A stretch of 17,443 nt of DNA from a virus (Duplodnaviria > Heunggongvirae > Uroviricota > Caudoviricetes), in the IMG/VR virus record IMGVR_UViG_2698536519_000009; one strand, 5' to 3'. Positions within the stretch are counted from its first letter, which is position 1; each line of letters starts with the position of its first letter. Below are positions 238-9,630 of the stretch, piece by piece. Under the pieces are notes generated by a model. That model ran no database searches. It was not told the origin of the DNA and saw only the letters and a list, made by a program, of their open reading frames with translations. Made by a program: the position numbers and the translations under genes.

Positions 238-451
238 CCGCAGCACGTTCCTGCATACGACGTGTCTGCGGCATAATCCCAATGATTACTCCCTGACAGG
301 ATTTGCAGGCCACTCAATATCAGGTGCAGTTGATGTATCAACACGATTCAACAATACCCGATATTTATTCCATGCCTCCAGCAACGATCTTTCTTCCTCC
401 GTTGCGATTTCCAGATCTACAGCATCCTGCAGTGGCGCAATATACTCACTG
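238..451. repeat. Direct repeat copy A (~215 bp): hairpin plus 3' end of a tfa-type gene
   Basis: Aligns by eye with 1288..1500 at a constant offset of ~1049-1050 with roughly 90% identity. Covers a degenerate copy of the hairpin (238-271) and the last ~55 codons of the Tfa-like ORF. Confidence 0.8.
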
Positions 452-555
452 AATTCCTGGATGTAGAACTGTGTGGTGACGGTCTTCCAGCCATTCGGCT
501 CCTGCTGTATCGAAGCATACCAGGCTATTTCAATATCGCTATGCTGCGGCAGCAT
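286..555 (-). CDS. Short Tfa-like ORF: unrelated 38-aa N-terminus fused to a Tfa C-terminal domain (tfaX-like remnant or small chimeric tail fibre assembly protein)
   Basis: 89-aa ORF. The C-terminal 51 aa ([51 protein letters not shown]) are nearly identical to the Tfa C-terminus; the N-terminal part ([38 protein letters not shown]) is unrelated. RBS AAGGGG sits 5 nt upstream of the ATG. Confidence 0.55.
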
Positions 556-611
556 TTAACCCCTTGTAATTCATCGCCATAATTGATTTAATTCACAAAT
601 AAAACTATAAC

Positions 612-1280
612 ATGGTGAAATCAATGAAAAAAAACACAGATGATGGGGCTAAAATTTACACACCACTTACCCTAAAGCTTTATGACTGGTGGGTTTTGGG
701 AGTATCAAATCGGCTTGCATGGGGATGTCCTACAAAGGAACACCTTCTTCCACACTTTCTGGAACATGTAGGTAACAACCATCTGGATATTGGTGTTGGA
801 ACTGGGTTTTACCTTACTCACGTACCTGAGAGTAGTCTGATATCTTTAATGGATTTGAACGAAGCTAGCCTGAACGCGGCATCTACAAGGGCTGGGGAAT
901 CAAAAATTAAACATAAAATTAGCCATGATGTTTTTGAACCTTATCCCGCGGCGTTACATGGTCAATTTGATTCCATTTCCATGTTTTACCTTCTTCACTG
1001 CCTGCCTGGAAATATATCTACAAAAAGCTGTGTAATACGCAATGCGGCGCAGGCCTTAACTGACGATGGAACTCTATACGGAGCCACAATTCTTGGCGAT
1101 GGAGTTGTGCACAATAGCTTCGGTCAAAAACTGATGCGCATTTACAATCAGAAAGGCATCTTTTCAAACACAAAAGATTCCGAAGAAGGCTTAACACATA
1201 TACTCTCAGAGCATTTCGAGAATGTTAAAACCAAGGTTCAAGGTACTGTAGTAATGTTTTCCGCTTCAGGGAAAAAATAG
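612..1280 (+). CDS. Class I SAM-dependent methyltransferase (small-molecule/protein type rather than DNA methyltransferase); cargo gene
   Basis: 222-aa ORF with Rossmann motif I LDIGVGTG, acidic post-I residue (LMDLNE) and motif II/III-like FDSISMFYLLHCLP. An alternative start at 624 (MKKNTDD...) has better spacing to GGTGA. GC content is clearly below the flanking tail genes. Its position next to tfa fragments recalls the ybcY methyltransferase pseudogene of the E. coli K-12 DLP12 prophage (from memory, unverified). Confidence 0.75.
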   Translation: MVKSMKKNTDDGAKIYTPLTLKLYDWWVLGVSNRLAWGCPTKEHLLPHFLEHVGNNHLDIGVGTGFYLTHVPESSLISLMDLNEASLNAASTRAGESKIKHKISHDVFEPYPAALHGQFDSISMFYLLHCLPGNISTKSCVIRNAAQALTDDGTLYGATILGDGVVHNSFGQKLMRIYNQKGIFSNTKDSEEGLTHILSEHFENVKTKVQGTVVMFSASGKK

Positions 1281-1287
1281 CATCCAA

Positions 1288-1320
1288 CCGCAGCACGTTC
1301 TTGCTTAAGACGTGCTGCGG
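1288..1320. terminator. Stable stem-loop between the convergent methyltransferase and tfa genes (putative bidirectional terminator or RNA-stabilising hairpin)
   Basis: ccgcagcacg / cgtgctgcgg perfect 10-bp stem, extended by tctt/aaga with a one-nt bulge and gctt loop. Lies 8 nt after the methyltransferase stop and 15 nt after the tfa stop. No U-run directly follows on either strand, so intrinsic termination is uncertain. Confidence 0.45.
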
Positions 1321-1500
1321 CATAATCCCAATGATTACTCCCTGACAGGGTTCGTAGGCCACTCAATATCAGGTGCAGTTGATGTATCAACACGGTTCAG
1401 CAACACCCGATACTTTTTCCAGGCTTCCAGCAATGAGGTTTCTTCCTCCGTTGCAATTTCCAGATCTGCAGCATCCTGAAGCGGCGCAATATGCTCACTG
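1288..1500. repeat. Direct repeat copy B (~215 bp): hairpin plus 3' end of tfa
   Basis: Partner of 238..451. Together the two copies bracket the methyltransferase gene and its divergent promoter region. Confidence 0.8.
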
Positions 1501-1919
1501 GCTACCTGCATCAGGTTGTTTTTTGTTTCTTCCGCCTCCCGGATCCGGAACAGTTTTTCTGCTTCTGCATCTTTCACCCAGGTTGTGCCGTTCCACTTCT
1601 GAAACTCCCCTTCCGGCGATAACCAGGTAACATTTTCCGGTAATAAGCCGAGTTCAGAAATAAATAACGCGTCGCCGGAAGCTACGTCATAAACCGTTTT
1701 ACCCCGATGATCTTCAACGAGATGCCACGATGCCTCATCACTGTTGAAAACAGCCACAAAGCCAGCCGGAATATCTGGCGGTGCAATATCGGTACTGTTT
1801 GCTGGCAGACCTGTATGAGGCGGAATATATGCGTCACCTTCACCAATAAATTCATTAGTTCCGGCCAGCAGATTATAAATTTTTATGGTCCGTGCTTGTT
1901 CACTCATTCTGAATGCCAT
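1335..1919 (-). CDS. tfa: Tail fibre assembly protein Tfa
   Basis: 194-aa [57 protein letters not shown]..., strongly resembling the Tfa proteins of E. coli cryptic prophages and lambda Tfa. Translationally coupled to stf. Confidence 0.9.
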
Positions 1920-4900
1920 TATGCAAGCCTCACAATATAGTTAAATGCGATGTTTTTGACGGTGTTTTCCGCGTTACCAGCAGCGTTAACGGTGATGGTG
2001 TGTCCATGTGAACCAATCGCAACGGAGTGCGTATGTGCACCAATACCTACAGTATGTGCATGTGCGCCAGAACTTGCTGCAGTACCAGACAGCGAGTGGG
2101 TATGAGCACCTGCTGACTGTGTCTGAATACGTTGATAATACGATCTACGGGAAGAAGTCCCCGGGCTTACTTGATACTGTGAATCCTGGACATAAGTGAA
2201 CCCACCGCCATCATAAAATGCTAACGCAGAACCGCCGCCTCCTGGCCAACGAATACCATTACCATGAGTATGATCACCGGCAGACCCCGTAGAGCCACTC
2301 AGACTGTGCGTATGCGCCCCGGTGTTATTCGTGGATTTAGTGCCGTAATCAAACGACGATGTGGTTTTCGTCCCCAAATCCGTACTGGATGCGCTGGCGC
2401 TGTGGGTGTGCGATTTAATGCCGTCCTGTTCCTGAGACAATACGGCTCGATCACTGGCGGGCTTGCCCTTAATCGTCCAGCCACGCATATCAGGAATAAC
2501 GCCTGACGGATAAGCCACTGCAAGTTTCGGGTAAGCAGATTTGTCAAAAGTCTGCCCCTGCATCAGGGCATAACCAGACGGAACGGTATCTGATGGCCAC
2601 GGGATTGGTGCACCGACTGGGTAACTTTCTGGTGGAAGATTTTTCGAGGTATAAACTTCTGCCCAGTCTTCCTCAAAACCATAACCGTCTCTTGAAGAAC
2701 GGTAGAACAGACCACCATTTCTGTAATGCGCCTTCATCTGCAGGGTCCGGCAACTTCCGACTCCGGTATAGAAGTTAACCAGAATATAGCTGTCGCCAGA
2801 GCGGGTGACATTGTAAGCGCCTGATTCGGCATTCCAGGGAACGCCACCATCCGCATCGGCATATGTATCCGTTGCCCTTCTGGCAAAAGCAGCCACATGC
2901 GCAGCGGTTAAAGTAATATCTCTGGAACCATCAAACTCAACACCAGAAACCAGTCTTGGCGTTTGCAGCTTTGTTGCTGTTAATGCATTACCGTTCAGAC
3001 TTGCGGACAGTTTGGTTCCAATAATCAGTTCGCCGGTTGCGTTATCAATAGCAACCGGTCTTAATGTATTCCAGCCACCATAAACATCACCTTGATTGGT
3101 AAGCAGCAGGTAAGTTTTAGCGCCATCATTACGCCATAATGCCCCATACTCCCCACCTATCATTCGAATCTGATTACCACCACGCGCTACAATTTCGTCT
3201 GTGGCAAAAAGTTTTTTGCACGACAAGTTATCGTTAACGATTAACGAATGAGACTCATAAAAACCACGCCCACTCTTAAAATCAAGGATAACGTCCGCCG
3301 CGATACATTCAGTCGCTGGATTTGTTGCCCCAAACTTATAGGTCGTATCATTAACAACGAGATCAGCACCAGGTGCGGATATTGACAGGCCATCTTCGAT
3401 AAACGCAAAAACAGGGAAAGCAGCGCCATCAACATAGAACACAGAGCGCAAATCATCGCCCTTATTACTCATCATTATTGAGTGGATGGCTCGTTCATTG
3501 TTTTGATATTGCCAGAACATTCCATAAGCATAACGCCCCCTGTCAGTCCAGCCACCAGGCATAACAAATCCGTTAAACTCGCAGTTATTCATCGGATCGC
3601 CTGCGGTTCGCGTTGCCGTGGTGATAATGACCCTTGATGCCAGTTCGCTTACTGAGCCAGCAGAACGCATAACAACAACAGGGTAATATTTTCCAGATGT
3701 TGCACCTGCAGGAGCGTTAACCCGCACATAACGCATACCACGCTTATCAGCAAAGTCTGTTTTACTGACCGCGTTAATGTTGTTCAGGAAGCGTCCCTTA
3801 TCGGGTATATCAGCGCCGTTCTGGTCTTTCTGCAGACGTTTCTCTGCATTGTCATAGGCTGATTTTACTGCCTTTGGCGTTGCCGCCAGCGTTTCAGACG
3901 TACTGTTGGTCGCACTGCTGAGCTGTACTATCCCCTTTTTCGTCGTACTTGCATCCTCAAGCGCCACGGCGGATGCAATATCCTCTGCCCGTTTTGCCGC
4001 TGTCTCAGCGCGCGTTGCTGCGGATTCCGCCGTACTTTTGCTCTGAGCTGCCGCCGTCGCACTGCCAGCTGCCTCTGTCGCCTTCGTGGATGCCGTCGTG
4101 GCGCTGCCCTTCGCTGCTGACGCCTGTCTGGTCGCCTCATCTTTTGAAGCAGACGCCGATGATGCCGATGACGCCGCCGAACTGGCGGACGATGCGGCAG
4201 CCGTTTTTGAGGATTCTGCGCTGGTCTCCGACGCTTTCGCGTTCGTCTCGGATGTCTTCGCTGCCTCTTTTGAGGCCGCCGCACCCCGTGCCGAGGTGGC
4301 AGCTTCTGACGCCTTCGTGGTCGCTGTGGATGCAGAAGTGGCTGCCGATTTTTGTGATGCTGCGGCATTCGTTTCTGACGTTTTCGCGGCACTGGCGCTG
4401 GTAGCTGCCGCGCTTTTTGATGACTCTGCAGCAGCAGCACTTTTTGATGCCTCAGAGGCTTTTGCTGATGCCGTTCCTGCGCTGGAAAAAGCCTCCTGAG
4501 CCGACGTCGCGGCCTGTCCGGCTGACGTGCTGGCTGCACGTGCTGAGCCTGCAGCATCAGTCGCATGGGTTGCCGCCTCACGGGCTGATGTGCTGGCATC
4601 GCCGGCTGACTTCTTCGCGGCTGCCGTGTTCTGTGCCACTGCGGACGCGTTACGCGCCACCTCTTCCACCATCTGCTCAAAGCGGCGCAGTGCCTCCGGT
4701 CGGACATCATCCTCCGTCATGGCACCGAGAAAATCATTCAGCGTACCTGGTCTGGAACCTTCATAGACGGTAATGGTCCCGGCATGTGAAGGCGGAAAAC
4801 CTTCAACCAGCAGGGTGACGCTGTACTGACCATGCTCAACATCCATGCTGTAACGTCCGGCTTCATCCGGATTTTCAGAGGCCACCGTGTTCACCACCAC

Positions 4901-4996
4901 CGTGCTGCTGGTTCGTCTGGCCTTCAGCACAATGGTGCAGTTCTGTACTGGTTTTCCTGTGCCATCTTTAAGCACGCCAGAAATTTTTACTGTCAT
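1919..4996 (-). CDS. stf: Side tail fibre protein Stf (mosaic: conserved N-terminal domain, Ala/Ser/Thr-rich repeats, divergent central domain, conserved His-rich C-terminal domain)
   Basis: 1025-aa ORF. N-terminus [28 protein letters not shown]... and C-terminus ...[40 protein letters not shown] match lambda Stf from memory, as does the [24 protein letters not shown] motif. Stop TAA overlaps the tfa ATG (TAATG). Confidence 0.9.
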
Positions 4997-5147: not shown

Positions 5148-5747
5148 TCAGAAACGGTATCCGATACCAACAATAAATGCATCCGTTCGCCAGTCGCCAC
5201 TACCGGAACCTTCATAAGCAAGGTCAATGGTCACGGATTCGGTCGGGTTAAACTGCACGCCAGCCCCCCACGCCAGAGACGTGTTGCTGTGGCGACCGTC
5301 ATCACTTCCGGTCAGCACATCGTGCGTTTTCCCCTTGTTGTCAATTACGCGGAGATAATCCCCGGAGAAAGTCGACACACGGCTGTAAGCCACACCCGCC
5401 ATCGCATACGCGCTGAACCATTCATTCACGCGTACAGACGGCCCCGCCATCACGCTGAACCAGCGGTTACGCACGGAATCTTCATGCCAGCGGGTATCGC
5501 TGTAGCGCGTTTTTTGCTCATCCTCAGCATTGGCATAACTGAAGGACGTAATCAGCCCCAGCGCGTCCGTAAACTCATAACGGTATTTCACGTTAATCCC
5601 GTTCAGATCATCACTACCGGGAACGTTCGTCGAGGCATGGAGATACCCCGCGCTCAGCGTGGACTGATGTTCTGCTGCACTCGCTGGCGTAGCAGCGGCG
5701 ACCTGCCAGACTACTGCGGACAAAATAACAGCACATAATTTACGCAT
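5148..5747 (-). CDS. lom: Lom-family outer membrane beta-barrel protein (Ail/Lom/PagC/OmpX family), lysogenic-conversion moron
   Basis: 199-aa ORF with a signal peptide (MRKLCAVILSAVVWQVAAATPASA|AEH) and the family-typical C-terminus ...DLAYEGSGSGDWRTDAFIVGIGYRF, as in lambda Lom. Lies between J and stf, as in lambda. Confidence 0.88.
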   Translation of the reverse strand: MRKLCAVILSAVVWQVAAATPASAAEHQSTLSAGYLHASTNVPGSDDLNGINVKYRYEFTDALGLITSFSYANAEDEQKTRYSDTRWHEDSVRNRWFSVMAGPSVRVNEWFSAYAMAGVAYSRVSTFSGDYLRVIDNKGKTHDVLTGSDDGRHSNTSLAWGAGVQFNPTESVTIDLAYEGSGSGDWRTDAFIVGIGYRF

Positions 5748-5771: not shown

Positions 5772-5796
5772 AAAAAAGGCGCCATTTCTGGCGCCC
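5772..5796 (-). terminator. Putative intrinsic terminator between the J stop and the lom start
   Basis: ggcgcc atttct ggcgcc hairpin (5778-5795), followed on the minus strand by a U6 run (plus-strand A-run 5772-5777). Located 19 nt after the J stop and ~25 nt before the lom ATG. Confidence 0.6.
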
Positions 5797-5814: not shown

Positions 5815-8800
5815 TCAGCTAATCGTGATGCCTGCAGTGGCTTTCTTCATCACCACAACCAGCAAATCGCTGATACTTGCTGTGGGATACCAGTTATTTA
5901 CCAGCCATGCTGACACCGAAAACTCCAGTGTCATGTGACCGTGACCGGCAGGCATATCAATAACACCACTGTAAATCAGCGTATTATCCAGCGCGGTACG
6001 GTTATAAATTTCAGCACCGTTTTTCCGCACTATCAGACGGCATGAGGAGTAAATATCAGTATGCTCTTTCTCATGTTTAGCGCCGCTGAATGCCACCGCC
6101 GGAATAACAATCTGCCGGTCAAACGGCTGATCGTCATAAACCCTGACGGTAATGGTTCCTGATGGCCACCGCTCCGGTGCACGGGAGTCCCGGGGGAAAG
6201 CTTTGCCCACTGTTTTAACGAGATCGCCTTCAATCTGGTTCGCGGACAATTTTCCCAGAACCCGACAGTTCTCGTTAATCGTGACGTTGTTGAGCGTCCC
6301 GGAGTTCGCATTCACGTTACCGCTGATATCGGCATTTTTCGCCGTCAGCCGCCCGTCCGGTGTCAGGGAAAATGCCGGAGGATTACCGCCGCTGGTAATG
6401 GTGGGAGCCGTCAGATATTTCAGGAACACTTCATTCATAAATATCTGATCGCCCTGACCAACAAACATCGGCTTTGTGTTGCCATTCGCAGGATTAATCA
6501 TCGCAATCCTGTCTGCCGCCAGCAGCACCTGACTCTGCATTCCTGCTGGCGTATTCTCAATACCGGCACCGATACCCGCAATATAAAGGCGTCCGTCCTG
6601 CATCTGCTGCAGTTTCACGGCCCACATGCTGTTCAGGTTATTATTTGTATCAACCTGAACTTTCTGTATCTGCTGGATTGCCGCACTCTGATTTTCCAGT
6701 TTTTTATTGACGGTCTGCGTGATTTCATTGCTGACATTCGTAATGGACGTCCTGATTTCAGCCAGGTCCGGCGCAAGCTGACCGTTATCAATCTGCGTCC
6801 ACAGCTCCTGGGCCAGATGTGTTTTCCCGATTTCTCCTTTGAAAAAATCCAGGTAACCTTCCGCATCATCGCTCGCCCGACCGACAGCCTCCACGAATGC
6901 CGATTTGCCAACAGTATTCACACTGCGGATATAAAAATAATAATCATGGCCCGGTTTGATATTGATACTGGCAGCTATCCAGTACAGCGCCGAGCCAAGA
7001 TAGCGGGCTGCGGTTTCAACCTGCCTGATATCCGCAATCCGCTTTTCCGAGAACCAGAACTCAAACTGTACCGTCGGGTCATAAACGGCAAGATGCGGCG
7101 TGGCGGTTATCTGAAAATAGCCCGGCGTCAGCTCAATCCGCGACGGTGCTGCCGGTGCGGCAATCCGGAAGGTGGTGGTGGCAGGTTCACCCTGCTGGCC
7201 ATAGCTGTTTATCGCCCGCACCGTCAGGGTGTATTCCCCGAGCGGCAGGCCGCTGAAACGGTGCTCCGTGTCTGCGGTGATGGCGGTGGTCACCAGTCTG
7301 GCATCCGTTCCCTTACCACTGGTCAGGCGCAGACTGAAGCGCACGCCCTTCACCACCCGCGGCGTGTCCCATTTAGCCTGCGCCAGATACTGGCCGTCAG
7401 CTGCGCTCACCTCCACCGTCAGGTGCTGTACTGCCGGTGGGATGACGCTGTTCAGGGAGCCTGACTGCGGCTCAAAGCGGGCACCGTTATCCACGATGGC
7501 TTCTTTTTCCGGTACGTGCTGCACCGCCGTGATGGCAAAGGTGCCGTCCGTGTTTTCCCGGATGGAGACACAGCGGAACAGGCGACGGCGCAGTGACGGC
7601 AGGGAGAGTCCCCACACCCCGTATGTCTCCACACCATCAGGCAGGGTACTGACCTGTATCCGGTCCGGCGCGGGGTGTTCGGTGATGTCCACACTCACCG
7701 GCTTACCGCTGCCGTTAATCAGGTTCACCGTGGCGGCACCGGTCTCCGGAAGTGTCACTTCACGGTCCAGCGTCAGGGTGCGGGTGGCAGCATCAATGGA
7801 CAGGACACGTCCGCCGGTCAGAGTCCCGGCATAGTCGTTATCACAGATTTCAATGATGTCACCGGGTGTGTGCCGCAGCCCCTGAGACCCGAGCGTGAAA
7901 TCCACCGTCTGCGTTTCCAGCAGTTCAGTCTTTATCACCCACAGTCCGGCACGGTGGGCCTGACCGCGGCTGGTACAGCCGAACGCGTCCATCTTCAGCA
8001 GGTTGCGTCCGTAGCGCAGTATGGCTTCCGGGTCTTCCACCAGTTCCGTGGAGGTCTGCCAGCCGTTCTGCGGGTCGGTGTAATTCACCTCCACCGCCGT
8101 GTGCCGGTCCTTCAGGGCACTGAAGCTGTAGCGGAATCCCACGCCGTTATCATCCACCACCACATCGCTGTTGGTGTACGGCCACACCACATCCGACGGG
8201 CGGTCCTGAACGAACGTCAGCGTCTGACCGTTCCATACCGGCATACAGCGCATCGCAGAGCAGAAATCACTGAGAACGTCCCACGCCTTACGCTGTTGTG
8301 CCAGGTACGCATTAAAGGTCATCCGCGGCTCTGTCCCCCCGAAACCATCCGGGACCGTCTGGTCGCAGTACTGCCCGATGGCATACAGCGCCCACTTGTC
8401 CACATCCGCCGCCCCCAGACGTTTTCCCATGCCGTAGCGCGGGTGAGTCAGCATGTCCCACAGGCACCAGGCCGGGTTGTTGCTGTATGCCGGTTTCAGA
8501 CTGCCGTCCCAGATACCACTGTACGTGCGTTTTTCCGGGTCATAGTTTGACGGCACCTGGATGATGCGACCGCGGATATGGTAGTTCACCGTCATCTGCT
8601 GGCCGCCGAACTGCTCCGCATCCACCTGCAGCCCCACAATGGCCGTGTTCGGGTAGCACTGTTTCACATCGATGATTTCGGTGTATGACGACCACAGCGT
8701 CTTATTCTGCAGCTGGTCCGTGGTGCTGTCCGCCGTCTCCCGGACCATCCGGATGTTAAAGGGCCGGGGAGGCAGATTATCCAGAATCACCGAGGCCAGG

Positions 8801-9288
8801 AACTGTGAGGTGGTCTTGCCGTTAATGGTGACGTCCTTTTCCGTCACCCAGCGGCCATTACGCTGTAACTGAATCAGAATCCGGACAGAGGAAGGATTAC
8901 GGTCGCCCTTTGACGTGGTCTGCACCAGTGACTGCACCCCGAAGGTAACCCGCAGGCGGTCAATGTTCGCGGACGTAATGGTGCGCGTCACCGGTTTTGC
9001 CTTCGTCACTTCCACGCCCAGTCCGGTTTCAGCTCCGGAGGACTCAAAGCCTTCCGGTGGTGTCTGCTCCTGCTCCCCGGCGCGCCAGACCGCCGTCACA
9101 CCGTGTATCACGGGATTGCCGTCCGTGTCCGTCAGTGGGGTTTTGTTCACCAGAATACTCTGCAGTCCCTTCACCGGACCTTCTATCGGTCCCTCACCAA
9201 TCGCATCAATCACACTCATCATCTGCGTGGATTTGAGATTATCCTTCGCCTCACGAGGCGTGTGTGCCTTACCGCCACCTTTTCCCAT
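5815..9288 (-). CDS. J: Central tail fibre / host specificity protein J
   Basis: 1157-aa [42 protein letters not shown]...; the N-terminal ~750 aa are highly similar to lambda gpJ. The coiled-coil-like region and C-terminal ~150 aa are divergent. RBS AGGGGAAGG precedes the ATG. Confidence 0.93.
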
Positions 9289-9394
9289 ACAGCCTTCCCC
9301 TGAATAAATTAACCGCCACTTGCCATTCCGTACAGAAGTCGGATATCCTTCGCCCGAAAAGCATGAAACACATTTCTGCCATGCTAAAGAGAAA

Positions 9395-9427
9395 CCCCGG
9401 TATCAGCAGATACCGGGGTTTTCTTTC
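9395..9427. terminator. Bidirectional intrinsic-terminator-like hairpin in the I-J intergenic insert
   Basis: ccccggtat cagcag ataccgggg: perfect 9-bp GC-rich stem with 6-nt loop (9395-9418). Followed by ttttctttc on the plus strand, and by tttctcttt on the minus strand (complement of 9386-9394). Confidence 0.7.
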
Positions 9428-9493
9428 ATGCCCACCGATAATCCTGTTGGTTAAAACCGGTAATGGCATAAAAATTCTGAATATCTTCACATT

Positions 9494-9521
9494 TTCACAC
9501 ACTGACTGTGGCGCTTATAAT
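9494..9521 (+). promoter_or_regulatory. Near-consensus sigma70-type promoter (TTCACA - 16 bp - TATAAT) facing away from the tail operon
   Basis: -35 TTCACA at 9494-9499 (5 of 6 to TTGACA), 16-bp spacer, perfect -10 TATAAT at 9516-9521. Predicted start near 9528; the plus-strand terminator lies ~70-100 nt downstream. Confidence 0.5.
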
Positions 9522-9591
9522 TTCGCTGCGTTAGTGTTTTTTTGCCCGAGTAACAAAAACAACTCCTTAACATTGATCTTCATTTGTCTGT

Positions 9592-9627
9592 CCCCGCAGC
9601 TCCGCGATCACTGCGGGATTTTTTTAT
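9592..9627 (+). terminator. Plus-strand intrinsic terminator at the end of the I-J intergenic insert
   Basis: cccgcag / ctgcggg stem (9593-9599 with 9611-9617) with an 11-nt loop, followed by attttttta (9618-9627). The U-run is on the plus strand only, so orientation is opposite to the tail genes. Confidence 0.6.
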
Positions 9628-9630
9628 GTT

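What the first reader, a model, noticed from the sequence alone, without database searches (positions are those of the whole stretch)
5815..7000. J is mosaic: the distal coiled-coil-like region and C-terminal receptor-binding domain diverge from lambda
The first ~750 residues of J track lambda gpJ closely. From about [14 protein letters not shown] onward (an AT-rich DNA stretch ~6600-6960) and in the last ~150 residues (...[109 protein letters not shown]) the sequence differs substantially. In lambda the J C-terminus determines LamB recognition, so this phage probably uses a different outer-membrane receptor.
Basis: partly seen in the sequence, partly recalled or inferred. Interest (0 to 1): 0.4.

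Follow-up and report, generated by a model that had tools for sequence, protein, structure and literature searches.

The report
Mosaic prophage tail-tip protein J, OmpC-binding
This lambda-like prophage tail-tip protein is a patchwork of modules, and its receptor-binding end matches one already shown by experiment to use the porin OmpC instead of lambda's LamB, so the finding is correct but ordinary.

Summary
J (window 5815-9288, minus strand, 1157 aa) is 69% identical to lambda gpJ overall, but unevenly: 77% in the hub, 90-100% in the second Ig/FNIII domain, about 20% in the alpha-helical shaft (77 aa against 49 in lambda), 77% in the beta-prism, and 42% in the C-terminal receptor-binding domain (RBD).

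The unevenness comes from recombination. Both ends of the gene match phage PhiR5_1 and a central block matches phage cdtI, with breakpoints at aa 706-710 and 978-980.

The last about 167 residues match the natural C-terminus in the engineered "gpJ 1A2" chimera of Brödel et al. (Nature 2024). That chimera delivers DNA without LamB and needs OmpC. It accepts the EDL933 OmpC and 20 of 23 tested alleles, but not the K-12 allele.

This RBD family occurs in about 62% of complete E. coli genomes, against about 2% for lambda's own RBD. It is the common form, so novelty is nil.

In passing: the shaft varies in length through a roughly 29-residue repeat, and the 342-nt I-J gap carries the sRNA PasB, antisense to the tail operon.

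The parts
5815..9288 (-). Gene J (tip attachment / central tail fibre protein), 1157 aa, intact ORF
   Evidence: ORF list and translation. 69% identical to lambda gpJ. Matches PDB 8iyk over aa 1-834 with E=0. Six Pfam gpJ domains pass their cut-offs.
7171..9288 (-). Module 1, aa 1-706: hub domains and first Ig/FNIII domain, of the PhiR5_1 / Stx2a-phage lineage
   Evidence: Mostly 95-100% nucleotide identity to PhiR5_1 and Stx2a_JNE090861 (down to ~80% around aa 121-157 and 649-685), against 50-90% to lambda. 479 of 510 informative sites match PhiR5_1 rather than cdtI. Pfam FNIII-A_GpJ 86-207, Phage-tail_3 331-492, Ig_J 609-712.
7161..7173 (-). Recombination breakpoint 1 (aa 706-710)
   Evidence: Best three-block partition of the informative sites.
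6820..7161 (-). Second Ig/FNIII domain (aa 710-823): the only stretch that is lambda-like at DNA level
   Evidence: 95-100% nucleotide identity to lambda, Turner and cdtI, against 57-87% to PhiR5_1. Pfam Ig_J_second 714-816.
6589..6819 (-).
   Evidence: 21% identical to lambda with a 25-28-residue length difference, and 97% identical to cdtI and mEp460_4F5. No Pfam model covers aa 817-869. Hydrophobic period of 3.5 residues, shuffle p about 0.05. A single-sequence AlphaFold model gives one helix over aa ~839-893, the only part with pLDDT of 60-74. The segment holds one copy of a ~29-residue unit that occurs three times in PhiR49_2.
6280..6588 (-). Beta-sheet prism (central straight fibre), aa 901-1003
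   Evidence: Pfam Phage_Tail_Tip covers aa 870-998. Matches PDB 8jvm, 8xcj and 9wca. 94-97% identical to cdtI and mEp460_4F5, 77% to lambda.
6319..6390 (-). Conserved linker [24 protein letters not shown] (aa 967-990), which holds breakpoint 2 (aa 978-980, window 6350-6355)
   Evidence: Nearly invariant among the nine J proteins aligned. Breakpoint. Brödel et al. chose this same stretch (lambda aa 964, equal to window aa 990) as the fusion point for their gpJ chimeras.
5818..6279 (-). C-terminal Ig-like receptor-binding domain, aa 1004-1157, of the '1A2' OmpC-dependent type. The part equivalent to the 1A2 graft is aa 991-1157, window 5818-6318.
   Evidence: Pfam Ig_GpJ_C covers aa 1027-1157, E=4e-37. 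Identity is 42% to lambda, 62.6% to A8 (whose RBD is identical to Turner's; PDB 9wca/9wcb) and 99% to PhiR5_1. The amino-acid sequence matches the printed gpJ-1A2 C-terminus. Strands are conserved and loop patches vary, at aa ~1034-1041, 1066-1082, 1098-1112 and 1125-1143.
5777..5796 (-). Terminator-like hairpin plus T run just downstream of J, before lom
   Evidence: Consensus scan. The same position is annotated as a rho-independent terminator in phage mEp460.

Best explanation
The gene encodes a functional-looking lambda-family tail-tip protein J assembled from exchangeable modules.

The hub plus first Ig domain and the C-terminal receptor-binding domain belong to the lineage found in PhiR5_1, in the long-tailed Stx-converting (Shiga-toxin) phage records examined and in PPompW prophages. 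The middle block comes from the lineage found in cdtI and mEp460_4F5. It comprises the second Ig domain, a long alpha-helical shaft and the beta-prism. Its second Ig domain is also nearly identical to lambda's.

Exchange happens at short conserved linkers. The last one is [23 protein letters not shown], directly upstream of the receptor-binding domain.

The C-terminal Ig-like domain is the host-range determinant. By analogy with lambda, a trimer of it would insert variable loops into a trimeric outer-membrane porin. Here the porin is OmpC, not LamB, and recognition depends on the OmpC allele: EDL933-type and most natural alleles are accepted, K-12 is not. Binding is then presumed to be relayed through the prism and helical shaft to open the tail tip, as seen in the lambda structures.

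Shown here: the module boundaries, the donor lineages, the domain architecture and the sequence match to 1A2.
Taken from the literature: OmpC dependence, LamB independence and the lambda triggering mechanism.
Inferred: that the native protein, with its longer shaft, behaves like the 1A2 chimera.
For: - Identity profile against lambda.
- Module-by-module comparison with nine other J proteins: shaft type and RBD type assort independently. The long shaft occurs with three RBD types, and the window RBD occurs with three shaft types.
- Nucleotide scan and breakpoint partition: 924 of 969 informative sites agree.
- Full set of Pfam gpJ domains, including Ig_GpJ_C. PDB matches to lambda gpJ and to 'A8 gpJ 713'. 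Entry 9wcb also holds an OmpC chain.
- The printed gpJ-1A2 sequence translates to the window C-terminus: 176 of 191 residues recovered overall and 154 of the 167 grafted residues. The remainder is unreadable because the machine-read PDF loses about one base per 60, as measured on its lambda-derived part.
- Published function of 1A2: recipients were lamB-deleted, and delivery into a lamB/ompC double deletion was restored by ompC alleles supplied in trans. It was efficient for EDL933 OmpC but not MG1655 OmpC, and reached at least 76% GFP-positive cells for 20 of 23 alleles.
- Circumstantial: phages with this RBD (PhiR5_1, PhiR55_1) are recorded as propagated on E. coli C, not K-12.
- Normal tail-operon context: G, T, H, M, L, K, I, J, lom, stf, tfa.
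Against: - No experiment exists on this exact protein. 1A2 carries lambda's short shaft and prism, not the window's.
- 13 of the 167 grafted residues could not be read from the machine-read supplement.
- The OmpC allele of this prophage's host is unknown.
- It is unknown whether the prophage is inducible. The J gene of VT1-Sakai, 97% identical at the DNA level, is annotated as truncated by a mutation.
- The helical nature of the long shaft rests on weak evidence: periodicity with p about 0.05, and a low-confidence single-sequence model with mean pLDDT 37.
Confidence: 0.88

Rival explanations
1. The C-terminal domain has diverged in sequence but still recognises LamB, as lambda does.
For: It is homologous to lambda's RBD: 42% identity, the same Pfam family PF12421, and conserved strands.
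Against: A chimera carrying this C-terminus was selected and assayed in lamB-deleted recipients. It needed ompC supplied in trans. The variable patches fall where loops would be expected.
Confidence: 0.03
2. The native protein uses some other or additional receptor (for example OmpF, FhuA or BtuB), because the 13 unread residues or the different shaft and prism change specificity relative to 1A2.
For: 13 of 167 residues are unverified. In rough Salmonella, Gifsy-1 J is reported to bind OmpC, OmpX and BtuB.
Against: All 154 readable residues are identical. The unreadable stretches coincide with frameshifts of the kind seen throughout the machine-read file. In lambda-family J, specificity maps to the C-terminal domain.
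Confidence: 0.06
3. The uneven identity to lambda reflects different rates of point-mutation drift along one vertically inherited gene, not recombination.
For: Surface-exposed distal domains do evolve faster in many tail fibres (general knowledge).
Against: The closest relative switches abruptly: PhiR5_1 at 95-100%, then cdtI at 92-97%, then PhiR5_1 at 96-100%, at two sharp breakpoints. There is a 90-nt stretch identical to lambda inside a gene that is otherwise about 75% identical. Shaft and RBD types occur in all combinations.
Confidence: 0.02
4. The gene is a relic in a defective prophage and has no current role in adsorption, whatever its specificity.
For: Lambdoid prophages in E. coli are often defective. 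The VT1-Sakai copy is annotated as truncated. The window ends in tail-fibre-assembly remnants in a related strain.
Against: All tail ORFs from the tail-tube protein gene to tfa are intact in the window. Phages with 89-99% identical J genes have been isolated as viable particles: vB_EcoS-783R2 and PhiR5_1.
Confidence: 0.15

Closest known systems
gpJ-1A2 chimera of Brödel et al., Nature 2024 (PMC11338833); also used in the anti-STEC (Shiga-toxin-producing E. coli) vector EB003 (bioRxiv 10.1101/2025.02.28.640725)
   Same: The C-terminal ~167 residues, from the conserved ISG junction to the end, match window aa 991-1157 at every readable position. This gives the experimentally defined receptor: OmpC, allele-dependent, LamB-independent.
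   Different: 1A2 has lambda sequence up to aa 964, so it has the short shaft and lambda's prism. The window protein is a natural J with a different hub lineage and a long shaft. The 1A2 DNA is not the window's DNA, because codon usage differs.
Bacteriophage lambda gpJ (PDB 8IYK, 8XCG, 8XCI, 8XCJ, 8XCK)
   Same: Same family, same domain order (hub, two FNIII/Ig domains, helical shaft, beta-prism, Ig-like RBD) and same operon position. The second Ig domain is nearly identical.
   Different: The RBD is only 42% identical and uses OmpC rather than LamB. The shaft is 28 residues longer and unalignable over most of its length. The hub is about 77% identical.
A8 gpJ (PDB 9WCA; 9WCB, which also holds an OmpC chain). 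The A8 RBD is identical to that of phage Turner.
   Same: It is the best solved-structure match to the window C-terminus (E=6e-125). It is an OmpC-dependent J RBD grafted at the same junction.
   Different: Only 62.6% identical in the RBD, with a 4-residue deletion and a 5-6-residue insertion in loop patches. The range of OmpC alleles differs: A8 accepts K-12 OmpC and 1A2 does not.
J proteins of PhiR5_1, of long-tailed Stx1a/Stx2a-converting phages, of PPompW prophages, of VT1-Sakai and of vB_EcoS-783R2
   Same: 89-99% DNA identity over the whole gene and 98-100% identical RBDs.
   Different: PhiR5_1 and the Stx2a phages carry a different middle block: 72% identity in the second Ig domain, 55% in the shaft and 74% in the prism. 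VT1-Sakai J is annotated as truncated by a mutation.
J of phage cdtI and of mEp460_4F5
   Same: The donor lineage of the middle block. Shaft is 97% identical and prism 94-97%.
   Different: The RBDs are unrelated in type: 39% identity for cdtI and 64% for mEp460_4F5. The hub is of the lambda lineage.

Membership tests
Lambda gpJ family (tip attachment protein / central tail fibre) | N-terminal hub domains homologous to lambda gpJ | tested here: met
   PDB 8iyk matches aa 1-834 with E=0. Pfam FNIII-A_GpJ and Phage-tail_3 pass their cut-offs. 77% identity over aa 1-600.
Lambda gpJ family (tip attachment protein / central tail fibre) | Two consecutive Ig/FNIII domains after the hub | tested here: met
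   Pfam Ig_J covers aa 609-712 (E=9e-41) and Ig_J_second covers aa 714-816 (E=7e-40).
Lambda gpJ family (tip attachment protein / central tail fibre) | Alpha-helical shaft between the second FNIII domain and the beta-prism | tested here: inconclusive
   The position and both flanks align with lambda's shaft. Hydrophobic period of 3.5 residues, p about 0.05. A helix over aa ~839-893 appears in a low-confidence single-sequence model. The trimeric bundle was not modelled.
Lambda gpJ family (tip attachment protein / central tail fibre) | Beta-prism fibre followed by a C-terminal Ig-like receptor-binding domain | tested here: met
   Pfam Phage_Tail_Tip covers aa 870-998 and Ig_GpJ_C covers aa 1027-1157. 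Matches PDB 8xcj and 9wca over aa 865-1157.
Lambda gpJ family (tip attachment protein / central tail fibre) | Position in the tail operon: after I, before lom and the side tail fibre genes | tested here: met
   ORF map and the annotated relative. Lom, the stf N-terminal domain and tfa were confirmed by Pfam.
OmpC-dependent J receptor-binding domain of the 1A2 type | Amino-acid sequence of the grafted C-terminus (after the ISG junction) | tested here: met
   154 of 167 residues recovered as identical. The remaining 13 are unreadable because of dropped bases in the machine-read supplement.
OmpC-dependent J receptor-binding domain of the 1A2 type | DNA delivery requires OmpC and not LamB, and depends on the OmpC allele | not testable with these tools
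   Published for 1A2 only. No assay exists for the native protein.
LamB-binding lambda-type J receptor-binding domain | High identity to lambda's RBD, including the receptor-contacting loops | tested here: not met
   42% amino-acid identity and about 50% nucleotide identity. The loop patches are unalignable or contain indels.
A8-type OmpC-binding J receptor-binding domain (PDB 9WCA/9WCB) | Same RBD allele class as A8 and Turner | tested here: not met
   62.6% identity, with indels in two loop patches. The published OmpC allele range also differs. It is homologous but a separate class.

The most novel reading that the evidence does not exclude
The helical shaft is a length-variable spacer built from a ~29-residue repeat. 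No copy was apparent in lambda (49 aa, not tested with the repeat scan), one is present here (77 aa) and three are present in PhiR49_2 (150 aa). It assorts independently of the receptor-binding domain. The shaft refolds during triggering in lambda. Its length could therefore tune how far the tip must reach through O-antigen or capsule, or tune the threshold for tail opening. That would make it a second, receptor-independent host-range dial that nobody has tested.
Probability: 0.15. Interest if true: 0.4.

Novelty: already known. Interest (0 to 1): 0.12.

Why it matters
It matters little as a discovery.

- Modular exchange of lambdoid J C-termini is textbook knowledge.
- This exact receptor-binding domain has been characterised experimentally and is already used in engineered delivery vectors (gpJ-1A2, EB003).
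- It is the most widespread J allele in E. coli. The RBD family is found in 3350 of 5426 complete genomes, against 96 of 5426 for lambda's RBD.

The practical value is for annotation. Prophages carrying this C-terminus can be labelled as OmpC-dependent with allele-restricted recognition, rather than LamB-dependent by analogy with lambda.

Tried and rejected
- A single-sequence AlphaFold2 run on aa 801-1157 gave mean pLDDT 37. Only the shaft helix reached modest confidence, so no fold search was run.
- No paper describing PDB 9WCA/9WCB was found. Instead I showed that 9WCB also holds an OmpC chain.
- The 2026 receptor-prediction preprint covers Drexlerviridae gpJ, not lambdoid J, so it did not help.
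- The Nature 2026 SNIPE paper uses the PhiR phages but gives no receptor data.
- I first suspected that the sRNA-like unit in the I-J gap was AgvB, because of its C/A-rich stretch. I rejected this. AgvB lies at the PR' moron site (a site of accessory-gene insertion), and its Rfam family did not hit. The unit is PasB.
- Low GC as a marker of the divergent segments was rejected, because lambda shows the same GC drop.
- I did not run the large protein-database searches. The phage and E. coli genome collections and the literature had already settled the question.
Full report
**What is there.** The finding lies in the 3' third of one intact ORF on the minus strand, window 5815-9288, 1157 aa.
- Its neighbours are the usual lambda tail genes. 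Upstream are the tail-tube protein gene, G, T, H, M, L, K and I. Downstream are lom (5148-5747), a 1025-aa side tail fibre gene (1919-4996) and tfa (1335-1919).
- A closely related prophage (97% identity over 98% of the window) sits at ompW, next to trpA-yciGFE, in ETEC (enterotoxigenic E. coli). It is a 'PPompW'-type lambdoid prophage. Another relative is in EAEC (enteroaggregative) strain 55989.
- Pfam finds the complete gpJ architecture: FNIII-A_GpJ 86-207, Phage-tail_3 331-492, Ig_J 609-712, Ig_J_second 714-816, Phage_Tail_Tip 870-998 and Ig_GpJ_C 1027-1157. The only unmodelled stretch is aa 817-869.

**Check of the observation.** BLASTP against lambda gpJ gives 69% identity. Sliding and per-module comparisons give the following profile.

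| Module | Window aa | Identity to lambda |
|---|---|---|
| Hub | 1-600 | 77% |
| First Ig domain | 601-700 | 59% |
| Second Ig domain | 701-823 | 90% (nucleotides 88-100%) |
| Helical shaft | 824-900 | 21% (77 aa here, 49 in lambda) |
| Beta-prism | 901-1003 | 77% |
| C-terminal domain | 1004-1157 | 42% (nucleotides about 50%) |

- The second Ig domain includes a 90-nt stretch identical to lambda at window 7045-7134.
- Three details were off:
  - The N-terminal 700 residues are a different lineage, not close to lambda.
  - The stated range also includes lambda-identical and moderately conserved sequence.
  - The low GC of 6600-6960 (0.476) is a property of the whole distal third of J in both phages, not a mark of foreign DNA.

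**It is a true recombinant.** I fetched nine other J genes from the phage collection and compared them module by module and by codon-aligned nucleotide scan.
- The closest relative changes abruptly along the gene:
  - aa 1-~700: mostly 95-100% to PhiR5_1 and a Stx2a phage (Shiga-toxin-converting).
  - aa ~709-815: 95-100% to lambda, Turner and cdtI, but 57-87% to PhiR5_1.
  - aa ~817-965: 92-97% to cdtI and mEp460_4F5, but 4-67% to lambda.
  - aa ~975-1157: 96-100% to PhiR5_1 again.
- I used only sites where PhiR5_1 and cdtI differ. The best three-block partition puts breakpoints at aa 706-710 (window 7161-7173) and aa 978-980 (window 6350-6355). 924 of 969 sites agree with it.
- The second breakpoint lies inside the nearly invariant linker [23 protein letters not shown].
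- Shaft type and receptor-domain type occur in all combinations among the ten proteins. They are independently exchangeable modules.

**What the C-terminal domain does.**
- The best solved-structure match to the C-terminus is not lambda. It is 'A8 gpJ 713' (PDB 9wca/9wcb), and entry 9wcb also holds an OmpC chain.
- A8 comes from Brödel et al. (Nature 2024, PMC11338833). They replaced lambda J after residue 964 with C-termini of natural J variants, screened in lamB-deleted recipients, and obtained two OmpC-dependent chimeras, A8 and 1A2.
- The A8 domain is identical to phage Turner's and 62.6% identical to the window's.
- The supplement prints the 1A2 gene. Its grafted part has different codons from the window, but it translates to the window's sequence:
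  - 176 of the 191 window residues compared (aa 967-1157) were recovered in 5-residue words.
  - 154 of the 167 grafted residues were recovered, and the misses fall at frameshift points.
  - These frameshifts are artefacts. The lambda-derived part of the same printed sequence shows 8 gap positions and 2 mismatches in 494 nt against lambda.
- Published behaviour of 1A2:
  - It is efficient on MG1655 carrying EDL933 OmpC but not on native MG1655 OmpC.
  - In a lamB/ompC double deletion complemented with 23 natural ompC alleles, it reached at least 76% GFP-positive cells for 20 of them and failed on G1, G2 and G40.
  - The same domain is used in the anti-O157 vector EB003.
- Consistent with this, phages with this domain (PhiR5_1, PhiR55_1) are recorded as grown on E. 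coli C rather than K-12.

**Mechanism.** Shown here: the domain is a member of the gpJ C-terminal Ig-like family. Its strands are conserved and it has four variable patches, at about aa 1034-1041, 1066-1082, 1098-1112 and 1125-1143.
- In lambda, the trimeric domain inserts four loops into the LamB trimer. The movement is relayed through the prism, and the helical shaft flips and partly refolds, opening the tip.
- By inference, the window protein works the same way on an OmpC trimer, with the variable patches setting porin and allele specificity.
- The long shaft is not needed for OmpC use. 1A2 and Turner have the short lambda-type shaft, and cdtI combines the long shaft with an unrelated receptor domain.

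**The shaft.**
The segment has few helix breakers and a 3.5-residue hydrophobic period (p about 0.05). It is the only part of a poor single-sequence model predicted with modest confidence, as one long helix.
- Its extra length relative to lambda corresponds to one copy of a ~29-residue unit. PhiR49_2 carries three tandem copies, with scores of 80, 46 and 36 against a shuffled maximum averaging 18.5 (SD 5.8; largest 39).

**How common it is.**
- The receptor-domain DNA (5815-6280) is found over at least 80% of its length in 3350 of 5426 complete E. coli genomes, often in several copies.
- The long shaft is found in 3543 of 5426.
- Lambda's own receptor domain is found over at least 80% of its length in 96 of 5426 (98 hold any match); all four full-length examples listed were K-12 or laboratory derivatives.
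- Lambda is the unusual one.

**Verdict.** Both the observation and the interpretation are right, but the thing is well known. It is a natural mosaic J whose receptor domain is the published OmpC-dependent '1A2' type.

**Remaining uncertainty.**
- 13 residues of the 1A2 graft could not be read.
- The native protein itself has not been assayed.
- It is unknown whether this prophage is inducible.

**Seen in passing.**
- The I-J gap is 342 nt, against 60 nt in lambda, and has low GC.
- On the plus strand it carries the Hfq-dependent sRNA PasB:
  - The published Northern probe matches window 9598-9620 exactly.
  - The 83-nt E2348/69 PasB, which also lies between I and J, aligns 82/83 with window 9543-9625.
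  - A promoter-like site lies at 9494-9521 and a terminator at 9601-9617.
  - The gap sequence is present in 1445 of 5426 genomes, with no annotated feature under the match in any of the eight hits listed.

Noticed in passing
window 9543-9625 (+ strand), within the I-J gap 9289-9630: The 342-nt, low-GC gap between genes I and J (60 nt in lambda) carries a homologue of the Hfq-dependent prophage sRNA PasB, antisense to the tail operon. It is 82/83 identical to E2348/69 PasB. The published Northern probe matches window 9598-9620 exactly. A sigma-70-like promoter lies at 9494-9521 (11 of 12 matches) and a terminator at 9601-9617. Rfam gave no hit at gathering threshold. None of the eight listed hits, out of 1445 complete E. 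coli genomes holding the gap, had an annotated feature under the match.
   Followed up: yes
window ~9383-9420 (- strand): A second strong hairpin in the I-J gap, on the coding strand: AACCCCGGTATC-tgctg-GATACCGGGGTT followed by TCTCTTT. It looks like a terminator in the middle of the tail operon, just upstream of J. Its role is unknown.
   Followed up: no
window 6589-6819 (-); L004 (PhiR49_2) J aa ~830-980: The helical shaft varies in length between J alleles through a ~29-residue repeat unit. The shaft is 49 aa in lambda (no copy apparent), 77 aa here with one copy, and 150 aa in PhiR49_2 with three tandem copies. It assorts independently of the receptor-binding domain.
   Followed up: partly
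window 6010-6120 (-), J aa 1057-1093: A hypervariable sub-patch inside the receptor-binding domain. It is only about 56% identical in nucleotides to PhiR49_2, while the flanks are 88-96% identical, and it has indels. This suggests loop-level exchange or diversification, perhaps tracking OmpC alleles.
   Followed up: partly
window 1378-1576 (-): An Rfam IS009 (RF02111) match at 225.7 bits lies inside the tail-fibre-assembly gene (1335-1919). The 'sRNA family' therefore overlaps coding sequence here.
   Followed up: no
window 612-1280 (+): A 222-aa class I SAM-dependent methyltransferase ORF sits on the opposite strand just beyond tfa, near the prophage end. It is probably a cargo (moron) gene. 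Tail-fibre-assembly remnants follow it in a related strain.
   Followed up: no
L012 (VT1-Sakai) 300-3772: The J gene of the Stx1 prophage VT1-Sakai, 97% identical to the window's, is annotated as two overlapping CDS 'truncated by a mutation'. The window copy is intact.
   Followed up: no
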